Sequence record: NC_049815.1
Strand: one strand, 5' to 3'
Length of the DNA: 51,012 nucleotides
Source of the DNA: Escherichia phage tonn
Below are positions 8,281 to 24,674 of this stretch, piece after piece. Positions within the stretch are counted from its first letter, which is position 1. Every line of letters begins with the position of its first letter. The notes under the pieces were generated by a model. It was not told where the DNA came from. It saw only the letters and a program-made list of their open reading frames with translations, and did not search any database. Both the position numbers and the translations under genes were made by a program.

Positions 8281-8301
8281 TTTAGCAATTCGTGCTATTT
8301 A
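8281..8301 (-). promoter_or_regulatory. 21-bp intergenic motif copy (variant AAATAGCACGAATTGCTAAA) with TATAAT 22 bp downstream
   Basis: motif match; TAG inside motif is stop of kinase gene. Confidence 0.5.
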
Positions 8302-8885
8302 ATCTTTGTGTGCTTCCATTTGACAGCATTGACGATCTCGTTTACAGCCAGTTCCGGCTTGCCGTCCTGCAAGTGGAAGTCATAGTGATGGATTCGATAG
8401 TGATAACCGCTCAGGTCAATGTAGTCTCTCGAATCGCCAGCAAACGTGAAGCCGTCGCGATGCAATCGGCAAATATGCACATCATGCCCTGCCTTAACAA
8501 GCGGCTTGACTTCTTCGGGGAATCCTCCATCACTGATCACAACCGCCAAATCTCGGTACATCTCGTGAATCTCTTCAACCATGCGACGCCCGAAATAGTG
8601 ATCCCCAAAGACTGGCTTCATTACATCCTCGCTAATCCAGATCATGAATTGTCGAGGTGACTTGCCTCCTAAGATAACTTGAGGCTTTTCTTTTTGCTCA
8701 CGGTCGTTGTACAGGTCAATAAACTCATCATATCGAGTCGGGCCAAGCATGGAAAACGCAATATCGAACATCGGCTGTTTGAATGACGCCTTAACCGCTG
8801 GGTAACGATGGCCCGTTAGGTAAGCTGCAATAGTGTCCTTCCCGCAACCTGGCGGCCCATTAAGGATGATAATGTCTCGTTTCAT
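8295..8885 (-). CDS. P-loop kinase (T4 dNMP kinase / polynucleotide 5'-kinase-like)
   Basis: 196 aa; N-terminal Walker A NGPPGCGKDT resembling the GKDT P-loop of T4 gp1 and the GSGKST of T4 Pnk. Confidence 0.6.
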   Translation of the reverse strand: MKRDIIILNGPPGCGKDTIAAYLTGHRYPAVKASFKQPMFDIAFSMLGPTRYDEFIDLYNDREQKEKPQVILGGKSPRQFMIWISEDVMKPVFGDHYFGRRMVEEIHEMYRDLAVVISDGGFPEEVKPLVKAGHDVHICRLHRDGFTFAGDSRDYIDLSGYHYRIHHYDFHLQDGKPELAVNEIVNAVKWKHTKIK

Positions 8886-16151: not shown

Positions 16152-16372
16152 GTCAAGACGGATTTTTTGAGCGCCTTCAAATGGCAGAAGATGCCGGACT
16201 AAATAAAGAGGCGGCGCTTGAAGTGGCATATAAAATTAAGCCTCTTGATGAGGCTTTAGGTGATATGGATATGGATCTTGAATCAAGCGCAATATTTGCA
16301 GATCCCACTATGATTGTTAATGATTGTGGATGCGATTTCGATCCTGGTTGTCCGCGCTGTTTTCCGTTTTGA
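16148..16372 (+). CDS. small acidic Cys-rich protein
   Basis: 74 aa; C-terminal CGCDFDPGCPRCF cluster. Confidence 0.5.
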   Translation: MSQDGFFERLQMAEDAGLNKEAALEVAYKIKPLDEALGDMDMDLESSAIFADPTMIVNDCGCDFDPGCPRCFPF

Positions 16373-16383
16373 GGTAATGACGA

Positions 16384-17093
16384 TGTATAAAGGTTTAATA
16401 TTCTCCCTATTTGATGGATCTGGTAAAGCAGTTAAAGATTGGGCTGATAATGGATATAAGTGCATTTGCTTTAATGCTGACGGCGGCGATCACGGTGATT
16501 ACCAGTCAGTGCGCATACAGCATGAGAATATCGAATACGTTAACGTCTGGATTGATGATGCTTTTTATGTTAAGGCAATCAATAATGAGTTGGGCAATCC
16601 TGATTTTATTATGGCGTTCCATCCTTGCACCGACCTTGCAAATAGCGGATCTCGCCATTGGGCCAAAAAACGCCTTGAGAATCCATCGTTCCAGGATGAG
16701 GCCGCCGACACTTGCAGAATCGCGGCTGATATAGCTGATTATTTCGGTGTTCCTTACATGATCGAAAATCCGGTTGGCAAGTTGTCAACGTTATGGCGTA
16801 AGCCTGATTATACGTTCCATCCGTGCGATTACGCTGGCTATCTGCCGGAAGATGATAAACATCCCGACTTCCCTGATATTATTCCGGCGCGTGATCGCTA
16901 TTTTAAGAAAACGTGCCTCTGGACTGGCAACGGCTTTGTTATTCCTCCACGCGCTTTAATCCTGCCGAAAGAGGAAGACAAAGATAATCCAGGCTGGGCC
17001 AAAACTGGAGGCAAGTCATCGCGCACAAAGATGATCCGCTCCCTCACTCCGCGCGGATTTGCTCGCGCCGTCTTTGAGTCAAACTCAAAATAG
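16384..17093 (+). CDS. DNA cytosine-5 methyltransferase-fold protein, atypical and without a normal target recognition domain
   Basis: 236 aa from ATG 16384 (GAGG RBS); FSLFDGSG (motif I-like), HPC-T at residues 80-83 (motif IV-like), ENPVG (motif VI-like), PARDRYF (motif VIII-like) at M.HhaI-like spacing. Confidence 0.55.
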
Positions 17094-19944: not shown

Positions 19945-20006
19945 CTCCCGACCTTGTGTCGGGTATATTTGTTTCATCGAAACGAACCAACCAAAAAGGA
20001 AAAATT

Positions 20007-20231
20007 ATGTCCAGCAAGTTTTTAGTAGTTCGCGTATACAATCATGCAAATGGATCTTCTTCTGAAATTCCGACAGTTTACGATAAGGATTCAGGCTGGA
20101 GTGAGCAATCGGCGGTTGAAAATGAGCGCAAGATTGCAGAAATGTACGGCGACACTTGCAGCATTGAAGTAAGGCAGTACGACGAATCGAACAAGCCAAC
20201 AAACGAAACTCATATGTGGCCCGACGCATAA
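20007..20231 (+). CDS. hypothetical protein
   Basis: start moved to ATG 20007 (listed start lies inside the promoter cassette). Confidence 0.5.
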   Translation: MSSKFLVVRVYNHANGSSSEIPTVYDKDSGWSEQSAVENERKIAEMYGDTCSIEVRQYDESNKPTNETHMWPDA

Positions 20232-20265
20232 AAATAAAGGAGGCATTAAGCCTCCTTTTTCTTTT
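20231..20265. terminator. bidirectional rho-independent terminator between convergent genes
   Basis: stem GGAGGC/GCCTCC with A-run before and T-run after. Confidence 0.6.
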
Positions 20266-20641
20266 CTCTCCAGTAAAGACAAATCAGCACAAGAAACACA
20301 ACAACGCATATGATTACTGGATCGTACCATCTGCCGTTATTACCCTGCACGACCTGAATTTTGTCTGCCTTGATGGTATTGGCCTGAATGGTTGATGTTG
20401 TGAAATCCTTCTTGCTGGACGTGTCCACCTTGTCAACCGCAGATTCCTTTATTGTGGTTTCCTGTTTTGTGCTGGCGTCCTGCTTTGCTGTAATGCCAAC
20501 TGTCTGCTTCACGTTCTCCGCTCCAGCCTGTGCTGTGATTTCCGGCTTACTGCCGATTAATCCGGTCAGTGGCGTAACGCTTGAACATCCAGACAAGATC
20601 ACCGCCATTGCGATTGGTGTAAGTAAAAAATTCTTCATCAT
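20246..20641 (-). CDS. unimolecular spanin (T1 gp11-like)
   Basis: 131 aa; N-terminal lipoprotein signal (AVILSGC) plus C-terminal TM helix ([16 protein letters not shown]); ATGA overlap with endolysin gene. Confidence 0.7.
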
Positions 20642-21129
20642 TTCAGATCCATTGTGCAATATTTGTATTCGACCTTGCGCCTGTTAAGTAAGCCTTTAGA
20701 CTTCTCGCGCTTTCCTGTTTTTGGGTTATGGTAATAAGTCCAACGATAAAGCTGATCGCAAGCCTCGTTTAATTTCCCCTGGTTGATGAGTTTCAGCATT
20801 GTTGAATTTCTGAAAGCTCCCACACCTGCATTGTAAGTGAATGAGTACATTGCTGCACGCATACTATCAGGAATATCAACCTTAACTTGCTTGTCAACTT
20901 CCTTTTTAGCAACCTGGATATGCTTAGCCAACAAAGCATCACACTCTTTTTTAGTGTACGTTTTCCCCAGGATAACATCTGGTCCGGTGATTCCTGCGCA
21001 AACCGTCCATACTCCAGCAATATCTTTGTATGGCTTGTATCTTACCCCTTCGATCTCTTCAAGAAGTGGAGAAGTCAAGGCAACCGCAACGCCAAAGGCC
21101 GCCGCCGCTACCCTGTTCTTTATGCTCAT
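20638..21129 (-). CDS. SAR endolysin (T4-lysozyme-like muramidase)
   Basis: N-terminal weakly hydrophobic Gly/Ala-rich SAR segment followed by E-x8-D-x5-T catalytic triad. Confidence 0.75.
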
Positions 21130-21344
21130 TACTTGCCCCTGATTTCAATAGCTTTTTGAATATCACCTTTTTCGATCGCCTCGTGGAATTTTTTACTATC
21201 ACGCCAGCGAAGGTAAGCGCCCCATGCACCGAATGCAGCCATTAAAACAAAGCTGGCAATAGCAATGGTTAACTGCCCTGTAGCGGCGCTTGCGATAGAT
21301 GAACCGCCAGATCCAGCGGTAGCTGCGTTAATAAAATCTTTCAT
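21129..21344 (-). CDS. holin (pinholin-like)
   Basis: 71 aa, Gly/Ala/Ser-rich first segment and hydrophobic second helix, charged C-terminus; TAATG coupling to endolysin. Confidence 0.6.
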
Positions 21345-21489
21345 TTTTATTCTCCATATTAATTAAAGTCAATATATTGACCGCATGATAAACGTACATG
21401 GTAAAAAATTAAACAAAAAAAAGAGGCGACAAACGCCGCCCCTTTGCAAGTTTTTGATTTAATTTGTCATTGATTTAAATAAAAATTCA

Positions 21490-22605
21490 TCAATTCATCA
21501 TTTCTGGATAGTGAACAAATCGCCCCACCTCTCCATGCTCTTTGTCGTAAATGATAACCGCCGCACGGCGTCGAGATCGCCAGCCACCGCGCGCGGCGTA
21601 TGCGTCTTTTGCCGCCAGGGTGCTATGCACCTCAACGATGCCAAGCGACGTTTCTGTCACGGTCTGGTGATGCCAGTGCCCTACGTGCGCATACATCGTT
21701 TTTGAGTTTCCGAAGTCCTCCCGCCAATCTGACGCGCACATCATTAGCAAAGCCTCCGGTTTACGCACTGTGTGCCCGTGATGGTACGCAAGGAAAGTTT
21801 TTCCGTATTGCGTGTGGTGCACAACGCGAGGGGAAACATCAACGTAAACGCGCGGCTCGTTTTCATATGCTGCCGCCATTGCTGCGCGTAGCCAAATCAT
21901 TCCTGATTGGTCATGATTGCCCTCTACGATCTGGACTTCAACATGTTTATGCTTTAACAACATTTTATTGATTGCGCGTCGCATTGCACGGATGGCAACG
22001 TAAACCAATTTTGCATATCGACTATCTTGATCCAGTACGTGACCGCTTGCAGGTGTAACCGCCTCCAGGCCGTCGCTATGCAGCATATCGCCACCAATCA
22101 GGATGACAGCCTTTTCGCTATCCGGTGCGCACATTAAAGCATAGTCGATAAAGTTATTCATAACGCGCTCTGCCGTGGCAGTATCCCAATTTTCGCCGCA
22201 TTCGTGCTTATGGGCCATAGCGCCTAAGTGCATGTCAAAGATCGGATACAAGGAAAGCGTTTCGTTATAGTCGCGCTCCTGTAATGGAACCGGATCTAAT
22301 CGCGGCACTTCCTCGCTAAATGCCTCCATTGCTGCGCGCATTAATGCTTCTAATTGCTCTTTATCCTTGCTGGTTTTAGTCCACTTTAGGATTATGTTGC
22401 CTTCTTTGTCAGTCATTACTGACTCACCATGAACGCCAAAACCAGGCGCTCCAATGGTGGATACCTGGCCTTGCTTTGCAAGTCGCGCCGCGCGACGCTC
22501 GACGCTTCTCACATTCATTCCGTACTCTTGAGCGATCTGTTTATATGTCTTACCCGCCGCCCGTTCGATCTTGAATTGCTCATCTGTAATTTTTACATTT
22601 TTCAT
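21490..22605 (-). CDS. calcineurin-like metallophosphoesterase (Mre11/SbcD-like) with N-terminal HTH
   Basis: start at ATG 22605 (MKNVKITDEQ); DMHLG, GDMLHSDG and GNHD motifs. Confidence 0.6.
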   Translation of the reverse strand: MKNVKITDEQFKIERAAGKTYKQIAQEYGMNVRSVERRAARLAKQGQVSTIGAPGFGVHGESVMTDKEGNIILKWTKTSKDKEQLEALMRAAMEAFSEEVPRLDPVPLQERDYNETLSLYPIFDMHLGAMAHKHECGENWDTATAERVMNNFIDYALMCAPDSEKAVILIGGDMLHSDGLEAVTPASGHVLDQDSRYAKLVYVAIRAMRRAINKMLLKHKHVEVQIVEGNHDQSGMIWLRAAMAAAYENEPRVYVDVSPRVVHHTQYGKTFLAYHHGHTVRKPEALLMMCASDWREDFGNSKTMYAHVGHWHHQTVTETSLGIVEVHSTLAAKDAYAARGGWRSRRRAAVIIYDKEHGEVGRFVHYPEMMN

Positions 22606-22699
22606 TCTGCTACCTATCTCATCACTATATGGTACATAACTGTAACAGCGATGATAACTGGTAACGGTAGAACAAACAAGCGCCACATGATAACTATCC

Positions 22700-22963
22700 T
22701 CATTTATAATATTTGCGAGGCTCTCGGATTTTAGCCATTGCCTCTTTGAAATCAATTTTTGTTGGAACTGCTGGAACTCTTACCATTTTTCGCGGCCTTT
22801 CCTTGAGGAAAGTCATCTTATCACCGCTAATTATGCTCACATCTGCAATATCAAAGTATTGCGCGATCTTCTTTATATCGTCTGCTATTCCGCATTCTTT
22901 AGCGTGATTCCATACCGCCTCTCTACCTTGTTCAACCTTCATGCTTATAATATGCCTCCGCAA
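22700..22963 (-). CDS. hypothetical protein
   Basis: 87 aa. Confidence 0.45.
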   Translation of the reverse strand: MRRHIISMKVEQGREAVWNHAKECGIADDIKKIAQYFDIADVSIISGDKMTFLKERPRKMVRVPAVPTKIDFKEAMAKIREPRKYYK

Positions 22964-23117
22964 ATTCTAATGGGTAGTGACCATATGCAACGCGAAGTAG
23001 AATCATTGCAGCGCCCCAATCAAGCTGCATATTGTTTTTCGTTCCACCTTTTACCGCCTCGCGTGCGGCTTGTTGCGCCTGGTCAAATGCTTTCTTGCTA
23101 TATACTACCATTTTCAT
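22932..23117 (-). CDS. hypothetical protein
   Basis: 61 aa; preceded by motif cassette and GAGGAAATGAAA RBS. Confidence 0.4.
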   Translation of the reverse strand: MKMVVYSKKAFDQAQQAAREAVKGGTKNNMQLDWGAAMILLRVAYGHYPLEFAEAYYKHEG

Positions 23118-23168
23118 TTCCTCACGTTCGTTTCGATGAAATAATTATGCCCGACAAAATGCCGGGCG

Positions 23169-23189
23169 TTTTAACAAAAAGTGCTATTA
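23169..23189 (-). promoter_or_regulatory. 21-bp intergenic motif copy with hairpin and CATAAT; leader CATCGAAACGAAC
   Basis: motif match. Confidence 0.5.
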
Positions 23190-23444
23190 GTGGATCATTC
23201 CGTTCTGAAAATTCCACGAATCGACAAACTCTTGCATGTCATTTCTTATTTGTTCGTGCCATTTTTCAAGATGTAGTTTTCTTGTATCCTCAAAGCTCAT
23301 ATCTAATGCGCTTGAAAATTCCCACGGATCGCAATCAATCATCTTTTTCACGTTAGGGTTTTTATCAAGTGCATCGCACACCATAGCGCGAAATAACAAC
23401 CACTCGCCAGTTTCATTTAAATAAACGCTTCTCTCTTTTTTCAT
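23187..23444 (-). CDS. hypothetical protein
   Basis: 85 aa. Confidence 0.5.
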   Translation of the reverse strand: MKKERSVYLNETGEWLLFRAMVCDALDKNPNVKKMIDCDPWEFSSALDMSFEDTRKLHLEKWHEQIRNDMQEFVDSWNFQNGMIH

Positions 23445-23448
23445 CGTG

Positions 23449-24174
23449 TTAGCTCCGTTTGCGCGCGCGGCGTTCGGTTACAGAAGGGCAAATATCGCTG
23501 ATCTTAACGTATCGCGTTTTCTGCTCTTCGCCTTCTTTAAGTTTACGCATGACAAAAATCACGCTCCCCTTATTGTTGCCCTGTACAGGCTCGCCAGTCA
23601 ATCCAGACACAAAGGCGATTCTTCCGGTGCGGGAATATTCCACTCCCCCCTCTTCGTAAACCTCGCCAGTGATCCAGATGATTTCAGCCGCGTTTTTCTG
23701 CGCCTCATAAAACCATGCTGTAGAGTTGTCGGATGGCAACAAAACATCAATTTGGTTGTTGTGCTCCATTTGCTCAATTGCTTTCTTGATAAATGGAGTT
23801 GGGTTGCTGTGCGGCGGGTTAAGCCATACGTGCTTGTTGCTACCCCACCAACGCTTTAAGCAATTTGTTTCCTTGCTGTAGAACTTCTCGCAAACTGCGT
23901 TTTCCTGGCTTGCTGCCGCGTCGAGATCGTATTCACCAAATTCTGATTCCATCCACTCCACGATCTCTTGAGGCGTGCTCCACATATCGCGCACAACGTC
24001 CGGCGTAGTGCTTCCAGCGTATCGGTTGCCGCTTACCTTATAATATTGATTTGGCTTTACTGCCTGGTAATGGCCTCCAGTTGCAAGAGCATTTCCTATA
24101 AACGTTTCTCTCTCCAACTGCTCAAAGCTAACGAATGCGTCATATGTGTCTTTATCTAAAATATCTTTAGCCAT
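23449..24174 (-). CDS. dam: DNA N6-adenine methyltransferase (phage Dam family)
   Basis: W-x-TP motif near N-terminus and NPPHS (DPPY-type) catalytic motif. Confidence 0.7.
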   Translation of the reverse strand: MAKDILDKDTYDAFVSFEQLERETFIGNALATGGHYQAVKPNQYYKVSGNRYAGSTTPDVVRDMWSTPQEIVEWMESEFGEYDLDAAASQENAVCEKFYSKETNCLKRWWGSNKHVWLNPPHSNPTPFIKKAIEQMEHNNQIDVLLPSDNSTAWFYEAQKNAAEIIWITGEVYEEGGVEYSRTGRIAFVSGLTGEPVQGNNKGSVIFVMRKLKEGEEQKTRYVKISDICPSVTERRARKRS

Positions 24175-24239
24175 TTTCATTTCTCCGCTATTAAAAGCCA
24201 TCTCGTGTTATTGAATTATGGCGCAATCCATCGCGCCAG

Positions 24240-24261
24240 TTTTAACAAAAAGTGCTATTTA
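24240..24261 (-). promoter_or_regulatory. 21-bp intergenic motif copy with hairpin GGCGCG..GCGCC and CATAAT
   Basis: motif match. Confidence 0.5.
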
Positions 24262-24674
24262 AGCATGTATTCAATAGCTAACTTAAACTGATTAAATCCG
24301 TAGGCGACCGCAGCGAATCCTCCTAAGCTGCGAACGCGACGCAAAAAAGACTTTTGTTCATCGCTGACTGGTGATGCTTTCCCCTTGCCTGATTTATTAA
24401 CTCGTTTGATCTCAATCGCTGCAAAGGGGTATTTTCCGTTTGAACCAATCAGGATGATGAAATCGCTTACCCCCTTAACCAAGCCGGACTGCTGATCAAT
24501 CATCGCCGTTACTTTCGACTTCTCATTCTCGTTTACCGTATGCCACGCTAGCAAATAAGGATGAGCATAAGTCAACCACTGAAAGCTATCTATCTGGTGA
24601 TTAACTTCCTTTCTCGTGTCGGTTGGATCTCTTTCGTAAAACTCAAGATAATCTCCTTTATCAGTTATAGCCAT
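24255..24674 (-). CDS. VRR-NUC domain nuclease
   Basis: 139 aa; D-x(n)-E-x-K PD-(D/E)xK-like core (DFIILIG...AIEIK). Confidence 0.55.
   Translation of the reverse strand: MAITDKGDYLEFYERDPTDTRKEVNHQIDSFQWLTYAHPYLLAWHTVNENEKSKVTAMIDQQSGLVKGVSDFIILIGSNGKYPFAAIEIKRVNKSGKGKASPVSDEQKSFLRRVRSLGGFAAVAYGFNQFKLAIEYMLK

What the first reader, a model, noticed from the sequence alone, without database searches (positions are those of the whole stretch)
21490..22605. Mre11/SbcD-like metallophosphoesterase with an N-terminal HTH and no SbcC partner
The protein has phosphoesterase motifs in SbcD-like form (DMHLG, GDMLHSDG, GNHD, HHGH), preceded by a ~50-residue HTH-like segment (TYKQIAQEYGMNVRSVERRAARL). 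No SbcC/Rad50-like ATPase is encoded nearby. It may act as a stand-alone nuclease or phosphatase, possibly counteracting host signalling or processing DNA ends.
Basis: partly seen in the sequence, partly recalled or inferred. Interest (0 to 1): 0.45.

Follow-up and report, generated by a model that had tools for sequence, protein, structure and literature searches.

The report
Phage HTH-fused metallophosphoesterase (T1 gp16 family)
This gene is the already-annotated "phosphoesterase / DNA repair exonuclease" of T1-like coliphages: a probable stand-alone DNA-cutting enzyme with its own DNA-binding head, ordinary as a finding, but still without a proven job and a good candidate for the unidentified enzyme that destroys the host chromosome.

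Summary
Window 21490..22605 (-) encodes a 371-aa protein with a basic N-terminal HTH, a beta-hairpin/helix linker and a metallophosphoesterase (MPE) domain. All five metal-binding motifs are intact.

The gene is not new. The window is a complete Warwickvirus (Drexlerviridae) genome. An identical protein is already annotated as "putative phosphoesterase". It matches PHROG 704 over its full length and is the ortholog of T1 gp16, TLS gp66 and Bas01_0050. Relatives occur in 2039 of 50,697 phage records and in many proteobacterial chromosomes.

It is not an SbcD/Mre11 ortholog. It has no capping domain, matches no SbcD/Mre11 profile, and has no SbcC/Rad50 partner in this genome or in about 85 related loci. 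Its motif style and nearest solved folds do place it in the nuclease branch of the MPE superfamily.

Published genetics show that Bas01_0050 is dispensable, toxic in E. coli, and mutated in phages that escape DRT7.

Best reading (about 0.5): a stand-alone, HTH-tethered DNA nuclease. It is possibly the unidentified host-chromosome-degrading enzyme of T1-like phages, analogous to but not homologous with T5 A1. Its presence in temperate phages argues against that role for the whole family.

Novelty: already known. Interest: modest.

The parts
21490..22605 (-). Complete CDS, 371 aa: HTH-metallophosphoesterase, ortholog of T1 gp16 / TLS gp66 / Bas01_0050
   Evidence: ORF list; PHROG 704 E = 7.5e-149, full length; 100% identical to the JLBYU01 'putative phosphoesterase'; 56% to T1 ORF16, 77% to TLS gp66, 59% to Bas01_0050.
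22462..22605 (-). N-terminal three-helix HTH domain (aa 1-48), basic (pI 10.2 for aa 1-50); the least conserved part of the family
   Evidence: Sub-threshold Sigma70_r4_2 / HTH_28 / HTH_23 hits at aa 16-47; HTH families hit in many of 34 family members; helices 8-16, 21-27, 32-44 at pLDDT 84-90; profile hits to DeoR and GerE HTH chains; pI and 22% mean pairwise identity.
22306..22461 (-). Family-specific beta-hairpin plus helix (aa 49-100) with conserved S62, G69, W75, K77, D81
   Evidence: Strands 56-65 and 71-80, helix 82-97 in the model. W75 is invariant in A4 and nearly invariant in A2. Relatives that lack the HTH (Vibrio and Campylobacter phage hits start at aa 62-66) retain most of this segment.
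21493..22266 (-). Metallophosphoesterase (calcineurin-like) catalytic domain, aa 114-371. Motif I DMHLG 22222-22236; II GDMLHSDG 22069-22092; III GNHD 21910-21921; IV HHGH 21772-21783; V GHWHH 21667-21681
21410..21445 (-). Intrinsic terminator immediately after the gene (11-bp G+C-rich stem, loop of 4, T-run). It closes the transcription unit ahead of the holin gene.
   Evidence: Terminator scan; sequence read; a rho-independent terminator is annotated at the same place after T1 ORF16.

Best explanation
The gene encodes a self-contained, two-metal phosphodiesterase of the nuclease branch of the metallophosphoesterase superfamily, fused to a basic N-terminal helix-turn-helix.

Proposed mechanism: the HTH, and possibly the conserved hairpin/helix behind it, holds the protein on DNA. 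The MPE domain then hydrolyses backbone phosphodiester bonds using the canonical ligand set (D124, H126, D173, N230, H276, H310, H312, with H231 and H176 as catalytic helpers). Three strongly conserved, family-specific loops around the site (aa 126-141, 176-199, 327-347) would form the substrate groove. It works alone, without a Rad50/SbcC-type ATPase.

In the phage it is a dispensable, host-toxic accessory function. The most likely role in T1-like phages is to start or carry out the breakdown of the host chromosome. That supplies nucleotides for phage DNA synthesis and shuts the host down. The DNA damage it causes would then be what makes Bas1 sensitive to the DRT7 defence.

Shown: the anatomy, intact active-site residues, fold, absence of a partner, orthology to T1 gp16 / TLS gp66 / Bas01_0050, and, from the literature, toxicity, dispensability and the DRT7 escape phenotype of the ortholog.

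Inferred: DNA as the substrate (about 0.65) and host-chromosome degradation as the role (about 0.35).
For: Active site fully conserved across 34 representatives at 30-56% identity, so the protein is an enzyme rather than a scaffold.

MPE fold, with the nuclease members Mre11, SbcD and PolD DP1 among the top solved matches. The motif style DxHxG / GDxxH matches those nucleases (own knowledge of the Mre11/SbcD motifs).

The N-terminal HTH is basic.

[quoted passage not shown] It is hit by missense and frameshift mutations in Bas1 phages that escape DRT7, alongside lambda gam mutants (bioRxiv 10.64898/2026.02.16.706125).

T1 and TLS degrade the host genome and reuse the nucleotides, and the authors state that the responsible genes are unidentified (PMC11447400). 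The T1 mutants defective in host degradation were recovered as transducing phages (title of Roberts & Drexler 1981, cited there). I infer from this that the function is dispensable, which matches the dispensability of Bas01_0050.

In this genome and in swan01 the only other nuclease-like genes are a RecE-like exonuclease paired with Erf and a VRR-NUC resolvase-type protein. Both are explained by recombination.

Precedents exist. T5 A1 (N-terminal DNA-binding domain plus predicted metallo-phosphatase) is necessary and sufficient for host DNA degradation and is toxic. Mycobacteriophage A10ZJ24 gp48, an MPE, disrupts host genomic DNA.

A defence that senses m6-dAMP released by phage-induced chromosome degradation protects against a Tunavirinae phage, Bas12.

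In chromosomal loci the gene lies near dNMP kinase and other nucleotide-pool genes in some cases (9 and 5 of 75 loci). This is weak evidence.
Against: No biochemical data exist for any member of the family.

Pfam Metallophos is below threshold for this protein, and no solved structure is similar at the sequence level. Substrate inference therefore rests on fold and motifs only. MPE folds also include cyclic-nucleotide, lipid and protein phosphatases that score only slightly lower.

The family is common in temperate phages and prophages. In lambdoid mEp044 and an E. coli prophage it sits in the early replication module between the O-like initiator and the DnaB helicase. An indiscriminate chromosome destroyer expressed there should be incompatible with lysogeny.

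T5 A1 is only an analogue: the profile-profile match is limited to 22 columns around motif III (probability 30%).

I could not find the mapping of the classical T1 host-degradation mutants to ORFs.

The DRT7 authors did not show that the protein is the trigger.
Confidence: 0.5

Rival explanations
1. It is an accessory nuclease for the phage's own DNA replication or recombination. It would act like a minimal Mre11 or PolD-DP1: trimming ends, opening hairpins or flaps, or nicking to start rolling-circle or recombination-dependent replication. The HTH would direct it to phage DNA or to the replisome.
For: In lambdoid mEp044 and an E. coli prophage the gene lies between the O-like initiator and the DnaB helicase. 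In T1-likes it follows the helicase / VRR-NUC / Dam block. Structural neighbours include PolD DP1 and the B subunits of Pol alpha, delta and epsilon. The TLS authors annotate gp66 as a 'proof-reading exonuclease' with a possible replication or recombination role. A role on phage DNA is compatible with carriage by temperate phages. The variable HTH could confer phage-specific targeting.
Against: The gene is dispensable in Bas1. T1-like phages encode no DNA polymerase to proofread for. Its genomic position is highly variable: after lysis genes, in a moron-like island among tail genes, or in a nin-like region. No replication gene is a conserved neighbour in 75 chromosomal loci. Toxicity in uninfected E. 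coli shows that it acts on host targets without phage DNA.
Confidence: 0.27
2. It is a small-molecule or protein phosphoesterase that interferes with host signalling or immunity. Examples would be hydrolysis of cyclic (oligo)nucleotide messengers, Ap4A or (p)ppGpp-like alarmones, or dephosphorylation of a host protein.
Against: The PPP signature motifs (GDxHG, GDxVDRG, GNHE) are absent; the motifs are of the DxHxG / GDxxH type (motif knowledge is my own). There are no profile hits to CpdA/Icc, ApaH or PP2A-type families and no PADLOC match. A conserved DNA-binding-type HTH is unexplained by this reading. Strong toxicity in E. coli fits a nuclease better.
Confidence: 0.08
3. It is primarily a transcription regulator. 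The sigma-region-4-like HTH would redirect or repress transcription, and the MPE domain would serve as a sensor or dimerisation module.
For: The best Pfam hit is to sigma-70 region 4. NCBI names some homologues 'winged helix-turn-helix domain-containing protein' or 'Rrf2 family transcriptional regulator'.
Against: All catalytic residues are invariant, and the MPE domain is much better conserved than the HTH (40% against 22% mean pairwise identity). Some relatives lack the HTH entirely.
Confidence: 0.05
4. It is a true SbcD that borrows the host's SbcC to form a hybrid SbcCD complex.
For: E. coli hosts encode SbcC (own knowledge). The nuclease-type motifs resemble those of SbcD.
Against: There is no capping domain and no C-terminal SbcC-binding helices: the protein ends about 59 residues after motif V. 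No SbcD profile matches in Pfam or NCBIfam. The family occurs across very diverse hosts with one conserved stand-alone architecture.
Confidence: 0.03

Closest known systems
T1 gp16 (ORF16, YP_003929) / TLS gp66 / Bas01_0050 / PHROG 704 'DNA repair exonuclease'
   Same: Orthologs: 56%, 77% and 59% identity over the full length. They share the HTH-hairpin-MPE architecture and the same position upstream of a terminator and the holin-endolysin-spanin cassette.
   Different: Nothing of substance; this is the same gene in another Drexlerviridae genus. The family has no biochemical characterisation. The only phenotypes on record are toxicity and DRT7 escape for Bas01_0050.
Phage T5 A1 (PHROG 1745), the host-DNA-degradation protein
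   Same: Same design: an N-terminal DNA-binding HTH-type domain plus a C-terminal metallophosphatase-type domain with the motifs GDIH, HDVxD, SNHD, GHTH. It is toxic in E. coli, and mutations in it let phages escape reverse-transcriptase-based defences (retrons Ec67 and Eco2).
   Different: Not the same family. The profile-profile alignment covers only 22 columns around motif III (probability 30%). A1 is 556 aa with a long middle region, is essential, is pre-early, and works with A2 in second-step DNA transfer. The T1-type protein is 371 aa and dispensable.
Mre11 / SbcD nuclease subunits
   Different: No capping domain, no Rad50/SbcC-binding helices and no partner ATPase gene. No match to SbcD or Mre11 sequence profiles. 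Only 12-15% identity and TM about 0.4. It carries an N-terminal HTH and three family-specific loops instead.
PolD small subunit DP1 and eukaryotic polymerase B subunits
   Different: No OB-fold domain is modelled and there is no cognate polymerase: T1-like phages encode none. The B subunits are catalytically dead, whereas this protein keeps all ligands.
Mycobacteriophage A10ZJ24 gp48 (cluster A phage MPE)
   Same: A phage-encoded MPE that is toxic, has phosphodiesterase activity in vitro, and damages host genomic DNA to blunt defences.
   Different: Motif I lies at residue about 10 (the D10G mutant), so there is no N-terminal HTH. Homology to the T1 gp16 family was not tested here.
PdeM / Pseudomonas putida MPE (ligase-associated Mn-dependent DNA endonuclease; TIGR04123, PDB 6nvo)
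   Same: A stand-alone MPE nuclease without a Rad50 partner. It is the best, though insignificant, NCBIfam hit and a weak PDB sequence hit, both around motif III.
   Different: 16.5 bits against a cut-off of 150. About 210 aa with no HTH. It is encoded in a bacterial Lhr-ligase repair operon (own knowledge).

Membership tests
T1 gp16 / PHROG 704 family (phage HTH-MPE) | Full-length profile match with the same domain order and length (about 370-420 aa) | tested here: met
   PHROG 704 E = 7.5e-149, aa 5-370 on profile positions 3-389 of 390. The best 150 representatives are nearly all 360-420 aa and match end to end.
T1 gp16 / PHROG 704 family (phage HTH-MPE) | Orthology and synteny with the T1, TLS and Bas1 genes | tested here: met
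   56%, 77% and 59% identity over the full length. In all four phages the gene lies downstream of the helicase / VRR-NUC / Dam block and upstream of the lysis cassette. A terminator follows the gene in T1 (annotated) and in the window (scan).
Metallophosphoesterase (calcineurin-like) superfamily | Five motifs supplying the binuclear-metal ligands | tested here: met
   D124-x-H126, G172-D173, G229-N230-H231, H276 and G309-H310-x-H312 are present. They are invariant or nearly invariant in 34 distant homologues.
Metallophosphoesterase (calcineurin-like) superfamily | Beta-sandwich MPE fold | tested here: met
Metallophosphoesterase (calcineurin-like) superfamily | Pfam PF00149 above the gathering score | tested here: not met
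   16.6 bits against a cut-off of 21.5 for this protein. Metallophos or Metallophos_2 hits at E <= 0.01 occur in only 9 and 6 of 34 family members. The family is too divergent for the Pfam model, so membership rests on motifs and fold.
Mre11 / SbcD | Match to SbcD/Mre11 sequence models (Pfam SbcD_C and Mre11_DNA_bind, NCBIfam SbcD) | tested here: not met
   None listed at E <= 1 in Pfam or NCBIfam. Neither phmmer nor a profile search against PDB sequences finds any Mre11 or SbcD chain.
Mre11 / SbcD | Capping domain and Rad50/SbcC-binding helices C-terminal to the nuclease domain | tested here: not met
   The protein ends 59 residues after motif V, and those residues are core beta-strands. The extra sequence lies at the N-terminus instead.
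Mre11 / SbcD | Co-encoded SbcC/Rad50 SMC-like ATPase | tested here: not met
   None in the 51-kb genome. None in the 10 loci examined individually or among the recurrent neighbour gene clusters of the 75 chromosomal loci.
Mre11 / SbcD | Mn-dependent exo/endonuclease activity on DNA | not testable with these tools
   No biochemistry exists for any family member. The activity is inferred from motifs, fold and the toxicity of the ortholog.
T5 A1 family (PHROG 1745) | Sequence-profile homology to A1 | tested here: not met
   A1 hits only PHROG 1745. hhalign of the two family alignments gives probability 30% over 22 columns.
T5 A1 family (PHROG 1745) | Architecture: N-terminal DNA-binding domain plus C-terminal metallophosphatase; toxic; host-DNA degradation | tested here: inconclusive
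   Architecture and toxicity are shared. Host-DNA degradation by the T1-type protein is untested.
Lambda-type PPP Ser/Thr phosphatases | GDxHG / GDxVDRG / GNHE signature | tested here: not met
Known anti-phage defence effectors (e.g. Calcineurin-CE) | Match to a PADLOC model | tested here: not met
   0 families at E <= 1.

The most novel reading that the evidence does not exclude
The T1 gp16-type HTH-metallophosphoesterase is the long-sought enzyme that initiates host-chromosome destruction in T1-like phages. This is the function lost in Drexler's high-transducing T1 mutants, and the TLS authors still described its genes as unidentified in 2024. The DNA ends or nucleotides it releases would be the infection signal read by DRT7 and perhaps by other DNA-damage- or nucleotide-sensing defences. 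If so, a single mobile gene present in about 4% of sequenced phages, including many temperate ones, would be a portable 'host genome demolition' module. It would have arisen independently of T5 A1 and T4 EndoII.
Probability: 0.3. Interest if true: 0.6.

Novelty: already known. Interest (0 to 1): 0.3.

Why it matters
As a sequence feature it adds nothing: the identical protein is already in GenBank with the same annotation.

Its value is as a pointer. A very widespread phage family (2039 phage records, 5175 clusters at 50% identity) has an intact nuclease-type active site and a DNA-binding head, yet has no assigned biochemical activity. Its ortholog was recently found to determine sensitivity to the DRT7 reverse-transcriptase defence.

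In my analysis of these genomes it is the only nuclease-like gene of T1-like phages not already accounted for by recombination. That makes the old question of how T1 destroys the host chromosome, and why some mutants transduce better, directly testable with one deletion and one purified protein.

Knocking it out could also matter practically. Drexlerviridae are used in phage therapy, and host-DNA degradation governs generalised transduction.

Tried and rejected
- Sequence searches against PDB chains with the single protein and with the family profile found no MPE hit of any significance. The only significant hit was a designed repeat protein ("CAP REPEAT", 8vd6; E = 9.6e-5) matching the HTH region; weaker, insignificant hits matched DeoR- and GerE-type HTH chains.
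- NCBIfam and PADLOC gave nothing usable.
- I tested whether the family is homologous to T5 A1 by building an A1 family alignment and running hhalign. The match was confined to motif III, so I rejected 'member of the A1 family' and kept 'analogue'.
- I looked for a conserved partner gene (an SbcC-like ATPase, an immunity protein or an inhibitor):
  - Ten loci were inspected by hand and 75 chromosomal loci were clustered.
  - The commonest neighbour family is a lysozyme, in 13 of 75 loci and at variable positions.
  - Some subclades have a homologous 183/208-aa downstream ORF, a 50-53-aa hydrophobic ORF or a Rha/Ant-like gene. None of these is present in the window.
- I tried to find which T1 ORF corresponds to the classical host-degradation mutants. 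The held literature contains nothing on this.
- I considered the longer ORF with a TTG start at 22755 (421 aa) and the RefSeq-style GTG start (398 aa). Both were rejected because homologues do not share the extension.
- The first structure model, from 16 close homologues, was mediocre (pLDDT 72.6). It was replaced by a model from 51 sequences (pLDDT 83.6). The loop at aa 337-343 remains unreliable.

Full report
**What the window is.** The 51,012-bp window is a complete genome of a T1-like siphovirus. The 4.5 kb around the finding is 99.8% identical to Escherichia phage vB-Eco-KMB46 and about 99% identical to swan01, the type species of Warwickvirus (Drexlerviridae, Tempevirinae). In these records the gene is already annotated as 'putative phosphoesterase' or 'DNA repair exonuclease'. 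A protein 100% identical to the window's product is annotated in phage JLBYU01.

**Checking the observation.**
- The minus-strand ORF 21490..22605 encodes 371 aa.
- A fifth motif, GHWHH (309-313), completes the canonical metallophosphoesterase (MPE) set.
- The ATG at 22605 is the real start. T1, TLS, Bas1 and all aligned homologues begin within about three residues of it. The longer TTG start in the ORF list (421 aa) and the GTG start equivalent to the RefSeq swan01 model (398 aa) add unconserved sequence.
- A strong intrinsic terminator (11-bp stem, T-run) follows the stop codon at 21445..21420, as annotated after the T1 ortholog.

**Family and fold.**
- The protein matches PHROG 704 ('DNA repair exonuclease') end to end, E = 7.5e-149.
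- Pfam sees it only below threshold: Metallophos at 16.6 bits against 21.5, and Sigma70_r4_2, HTH_28 and HTH_23 at aa 16-47. NCBIfam and PADLOC see nothing meaningful.
- An exhaustive profile search found 5175 clusters at 50% identity with E <= 1e-3. Of these, 1290 had E below 1e-30, and nearly all of the best 150 are 360-420 aa and match over the full length.
- Across 34 representatives at 30-56% identity, D124, H126, G128, D173, T184, N230, H231, H276, G309 and H312 are invariant, and H176, D178, D232 and H310 nearly so. Every metal ligand of an MPE is retained, so this is an enzyme, not a degenerate scaffold.
- The best AlphaFold model (51 sequences, pLDDT 83.6) shows four parts: a three-helix N-terminal bundle (8-16, 21-27, 32-44); a beta-hairpin (56-65, 71-80) with a helix (82-97); a short linker; and an MPE sandwich (114-371) with nothing after it.
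- The N-terminal 50 residues have pI 10.2 and are the least conserved part of the family (22% mean pairwise identity against 40% for the MPE domain). Three family-specific loops next to motifs I and II and at 327-347 are among the most conserved segments.
- HTH families of many kinds are hit in the N-termini of family members. The family profile picks up DeoR- and GerE-type HTH chains in the PDB.

**Is it Mre11/SbcD-like?** Only at the level of the nuclease branch of the superfamily.
- Foldseek on the better model ranks archaeal Mre11 first (E = 2.6e-7). TM-scores are only 0.36-0.41, and a COG0622 phosphoesterase, PolD DP1 and Rv0805 lie within about five-fold in E-value.
- The DxHxG and GDxxH forms of motifs I and II are the forms I know from Mre11, SbcD and DP1. 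This rests on my own knowledge, not on a test.
- Against membership: no SbcD or Mre11 profile matches, and there is no capping domain or Rad50/SbcC-binding tail.
- There is also no SMC-like ATPase. The genome has only eight stop-to-stop ORFs of 400 aa or more, and all are accounted for: portal, TerL, DUF3987 helicase, the target, SNF2 helicase, tail fibre, J-like tip and tape measure.

**Distribution and context.**
- tblastn finds the family in 2039 of 50,697 phage records. These include Drexlerviridae of Escherichia, Klebsiella and Shigella, and about 42-45-kb Salmonella and Escherichia siphoviruses such as SETP13. They also include Era103, Vibrio, Rhizobium, Roseobacter and Campylobacter phages, and the lambdoid phages mEp010 and mEp044.
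- A genome scan recovered it inside large chromosomal contigs of many Alpha-, Beta- and Gammaproteobacteria, most likely as prophages.
- Its position is not fixed:
  - before the lysis cassette in T1-likes;
  - between the O-like initiator and the DnaB helicase in mEp044 and an E. coli prophage;
  - after the lysis genes at the end of the late operon;
  - in a nin-like region;
  - in an oppositely oriented island among tail genes, next to a superinfection-immunity gene and a pRha/ANT gene.
- Clustering all ORFs within 6 kb in 75 chromosomal loci gave no conserved neighbour. The commonest is a lysozyme (13 loci). After it come dNMP kinase (9), terminase and a 509-aa protein of unknown function (7 each), trypsin-like protease and GH108 lysozyme (6 each), and portal, DUF1937 and a dATP/dGTP diphosphohydrolase domain (5 each).
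- The gene is therefore a self-contained, mobile accessory module.

**What experiments say.**
- Bas01_0050 of BASEL phage Bas1 is a 59% identical, syntenic ortholog. [quoted passage not shown] Lambda escaped through loss of gam. The gene could not be co-expressed with DRT7 because it is toxic in E. coli. It is therefore dispensable, harmful to the host on its own, and a determinant of defence sensitivity.
- The 2024 re-annotation of TLS states that T1 and TLS degrade the host genome and reuse its nucleotides, and that the genes responsible have not been identified. The same paper lists gp66, 77% identical to the window protein, as a 'proof-reading exonuclease'.
- Two precedents show phage MPEs destroying host DNA. 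T5 A1, a predicted metallo-phosphatase with an N-terminal DNA-binding domain, is necessary and sufficient for chromosome digestion and is toxic. Mycobacteriophage A10ZJ24 gp48 is the second.
- I built an A1 family alignment. A1 carries MPE-like motifs (GDIH, HDVxD, SNHD, GHTH), but profile-profile comparison with the T1 gp16 family aligns only 22 columns (probability 30%). A1 is an analogue, not a relative within the same family.

**Most likely mechanism.** The protein is probably a stand-alone DNA nuclease. The HTH tethers it to DNA, and the two-metal centre cuts the backbone.
- In this genome the other nuclease-like genes are a RecE-type exonuclease next to Erf and SSB, and a VRR-NUC protein. 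Both have obvious recombination roles. This gene is therefore the best candidate for the unassigned host-DNA degradation activity of T1-like phages.
- The T1 mutants defective in that activity were recovered as transducing phages (title cited). I infer from this that the function is dispensable, which matches the dispensability of Bas01_0050.
- A defence triggered by m6-dAMP from chromosome breakdown acts on a Tunavirinae phage, Bas12.
- I put DNA as the substrate at about 0.65 and host-chromosome degradation as the role at about 0.35.

**Main counter-argument.** The family is common in temperate phages and can sit in the early replication operon. An indiscriminate chromosome destroyer there should prevent lysogeny. 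This keeps alive the rival that it is a replication or recombination accessory nuclease acting on phage DNA (0.27). Signalling phosphodiesterase or protein phosphatase (0.08), regulator (0.05) and SbcD-with-host-SbcC (0.03) readings are weak, for the reasons given in their entries.

**Verdict.** The feature is already known and annotated, so it ranks low for surprise. Its residual interest is that the family is large, enzymatically intact and biochemically untouched. It is also linked to DRT7 sensitivity, and it offers a one-gene test of a question about T1 that has been open since 1981.

Noticed in passing
window 22606-22686 (-); L011 44826-46022: Public records disagree on the start codon. 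RefSeq swan01 models 398 aa, which corresponds here to a GTG 27 codons upstream. KMB46, T1, TLS and Bas1 use the ATG that gives 371-377 aa. The extension is not conserved in homologues.
   Followed up: yes
L010 5257-5967 (mEp044_11) and L013 7479-8150: A pRha/ANT-type (antirepressor-like) gene lies directly beside the HTH-MPE gene in a lambdoid phage and also in a Jersey-like phage contig. The two proteins are 44% identical. This suggests that the two genes sometimes travel together as a cassette.
   Followed up: partly
L006 9125-9676; L014 7134-7760: In two unrelated phage contigs an ORF of 183 or 208 aa overlaps the stop codon of the HTH-MPE gene. The two are weakly homologous (27% over 143 aa, E = 7.5e-7) and have no Pfam hit on record. 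This may be a subclade-specific partner or inhibitor. It is absent from the window.
   Followed up: partly
L007 9155-9316; L008 1259-1411: Small hydrophobic ORFs of 53 and 50 aa, homologous to each other, sit immediately downstream of the HTH-MPE gene in two temperate-phage contigs.
   Followed up: no
window 23449-24201 (-) and 16314-17093 (+): The phage encodes both a Dam-type adenine methyltransferase and a Dcm-like cytosine methyltransferase. If the HTH-MPE attacks host DNA, phage-specific methylation is one possible way for the phage to spare its own genome. This was not examined.
   Followed up: no
It has no [AG]xxxxGK[ST] Walker A match in a simple regex scan.
   Followed up: partly
window 8295-8885 (-); chromosomal loci L016-L095: This ORF is annotated as dNMP kinase in KMB46 but has no Pfam hit here. 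In chromosomal loci, dNMP kinase (PF21448), a dATP/dGTP diphosphohydrolase domain and DUF1937 recur within 6 kb of the HTH-MPE gene (9, 5 and 5 of 75 loci). This hints at a link with nucleotide salvage.
   Followed up: partly
window 20000-24500: The megablast search listed 20 records named 'Campylobacter phage' (host Campylobacter jejuni) among the nucleotide-level matches to this E. coli phage region. This is odd for such distant hosts and may reflect mislabelled or contaminated records.
   Followed up: no
L003 1706-3376 (T5 A1) and its homologues: Relatives of T5 A1 at 45-49% identity carry different recognisable HTH domains at the N-terminus (HTH_23, HTH_38, resolvase HTH, HTH_psq). The DNA-binding head of that nuclease family is therefore also swappable, as in the T1 gp16 family.
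   Followed up: no
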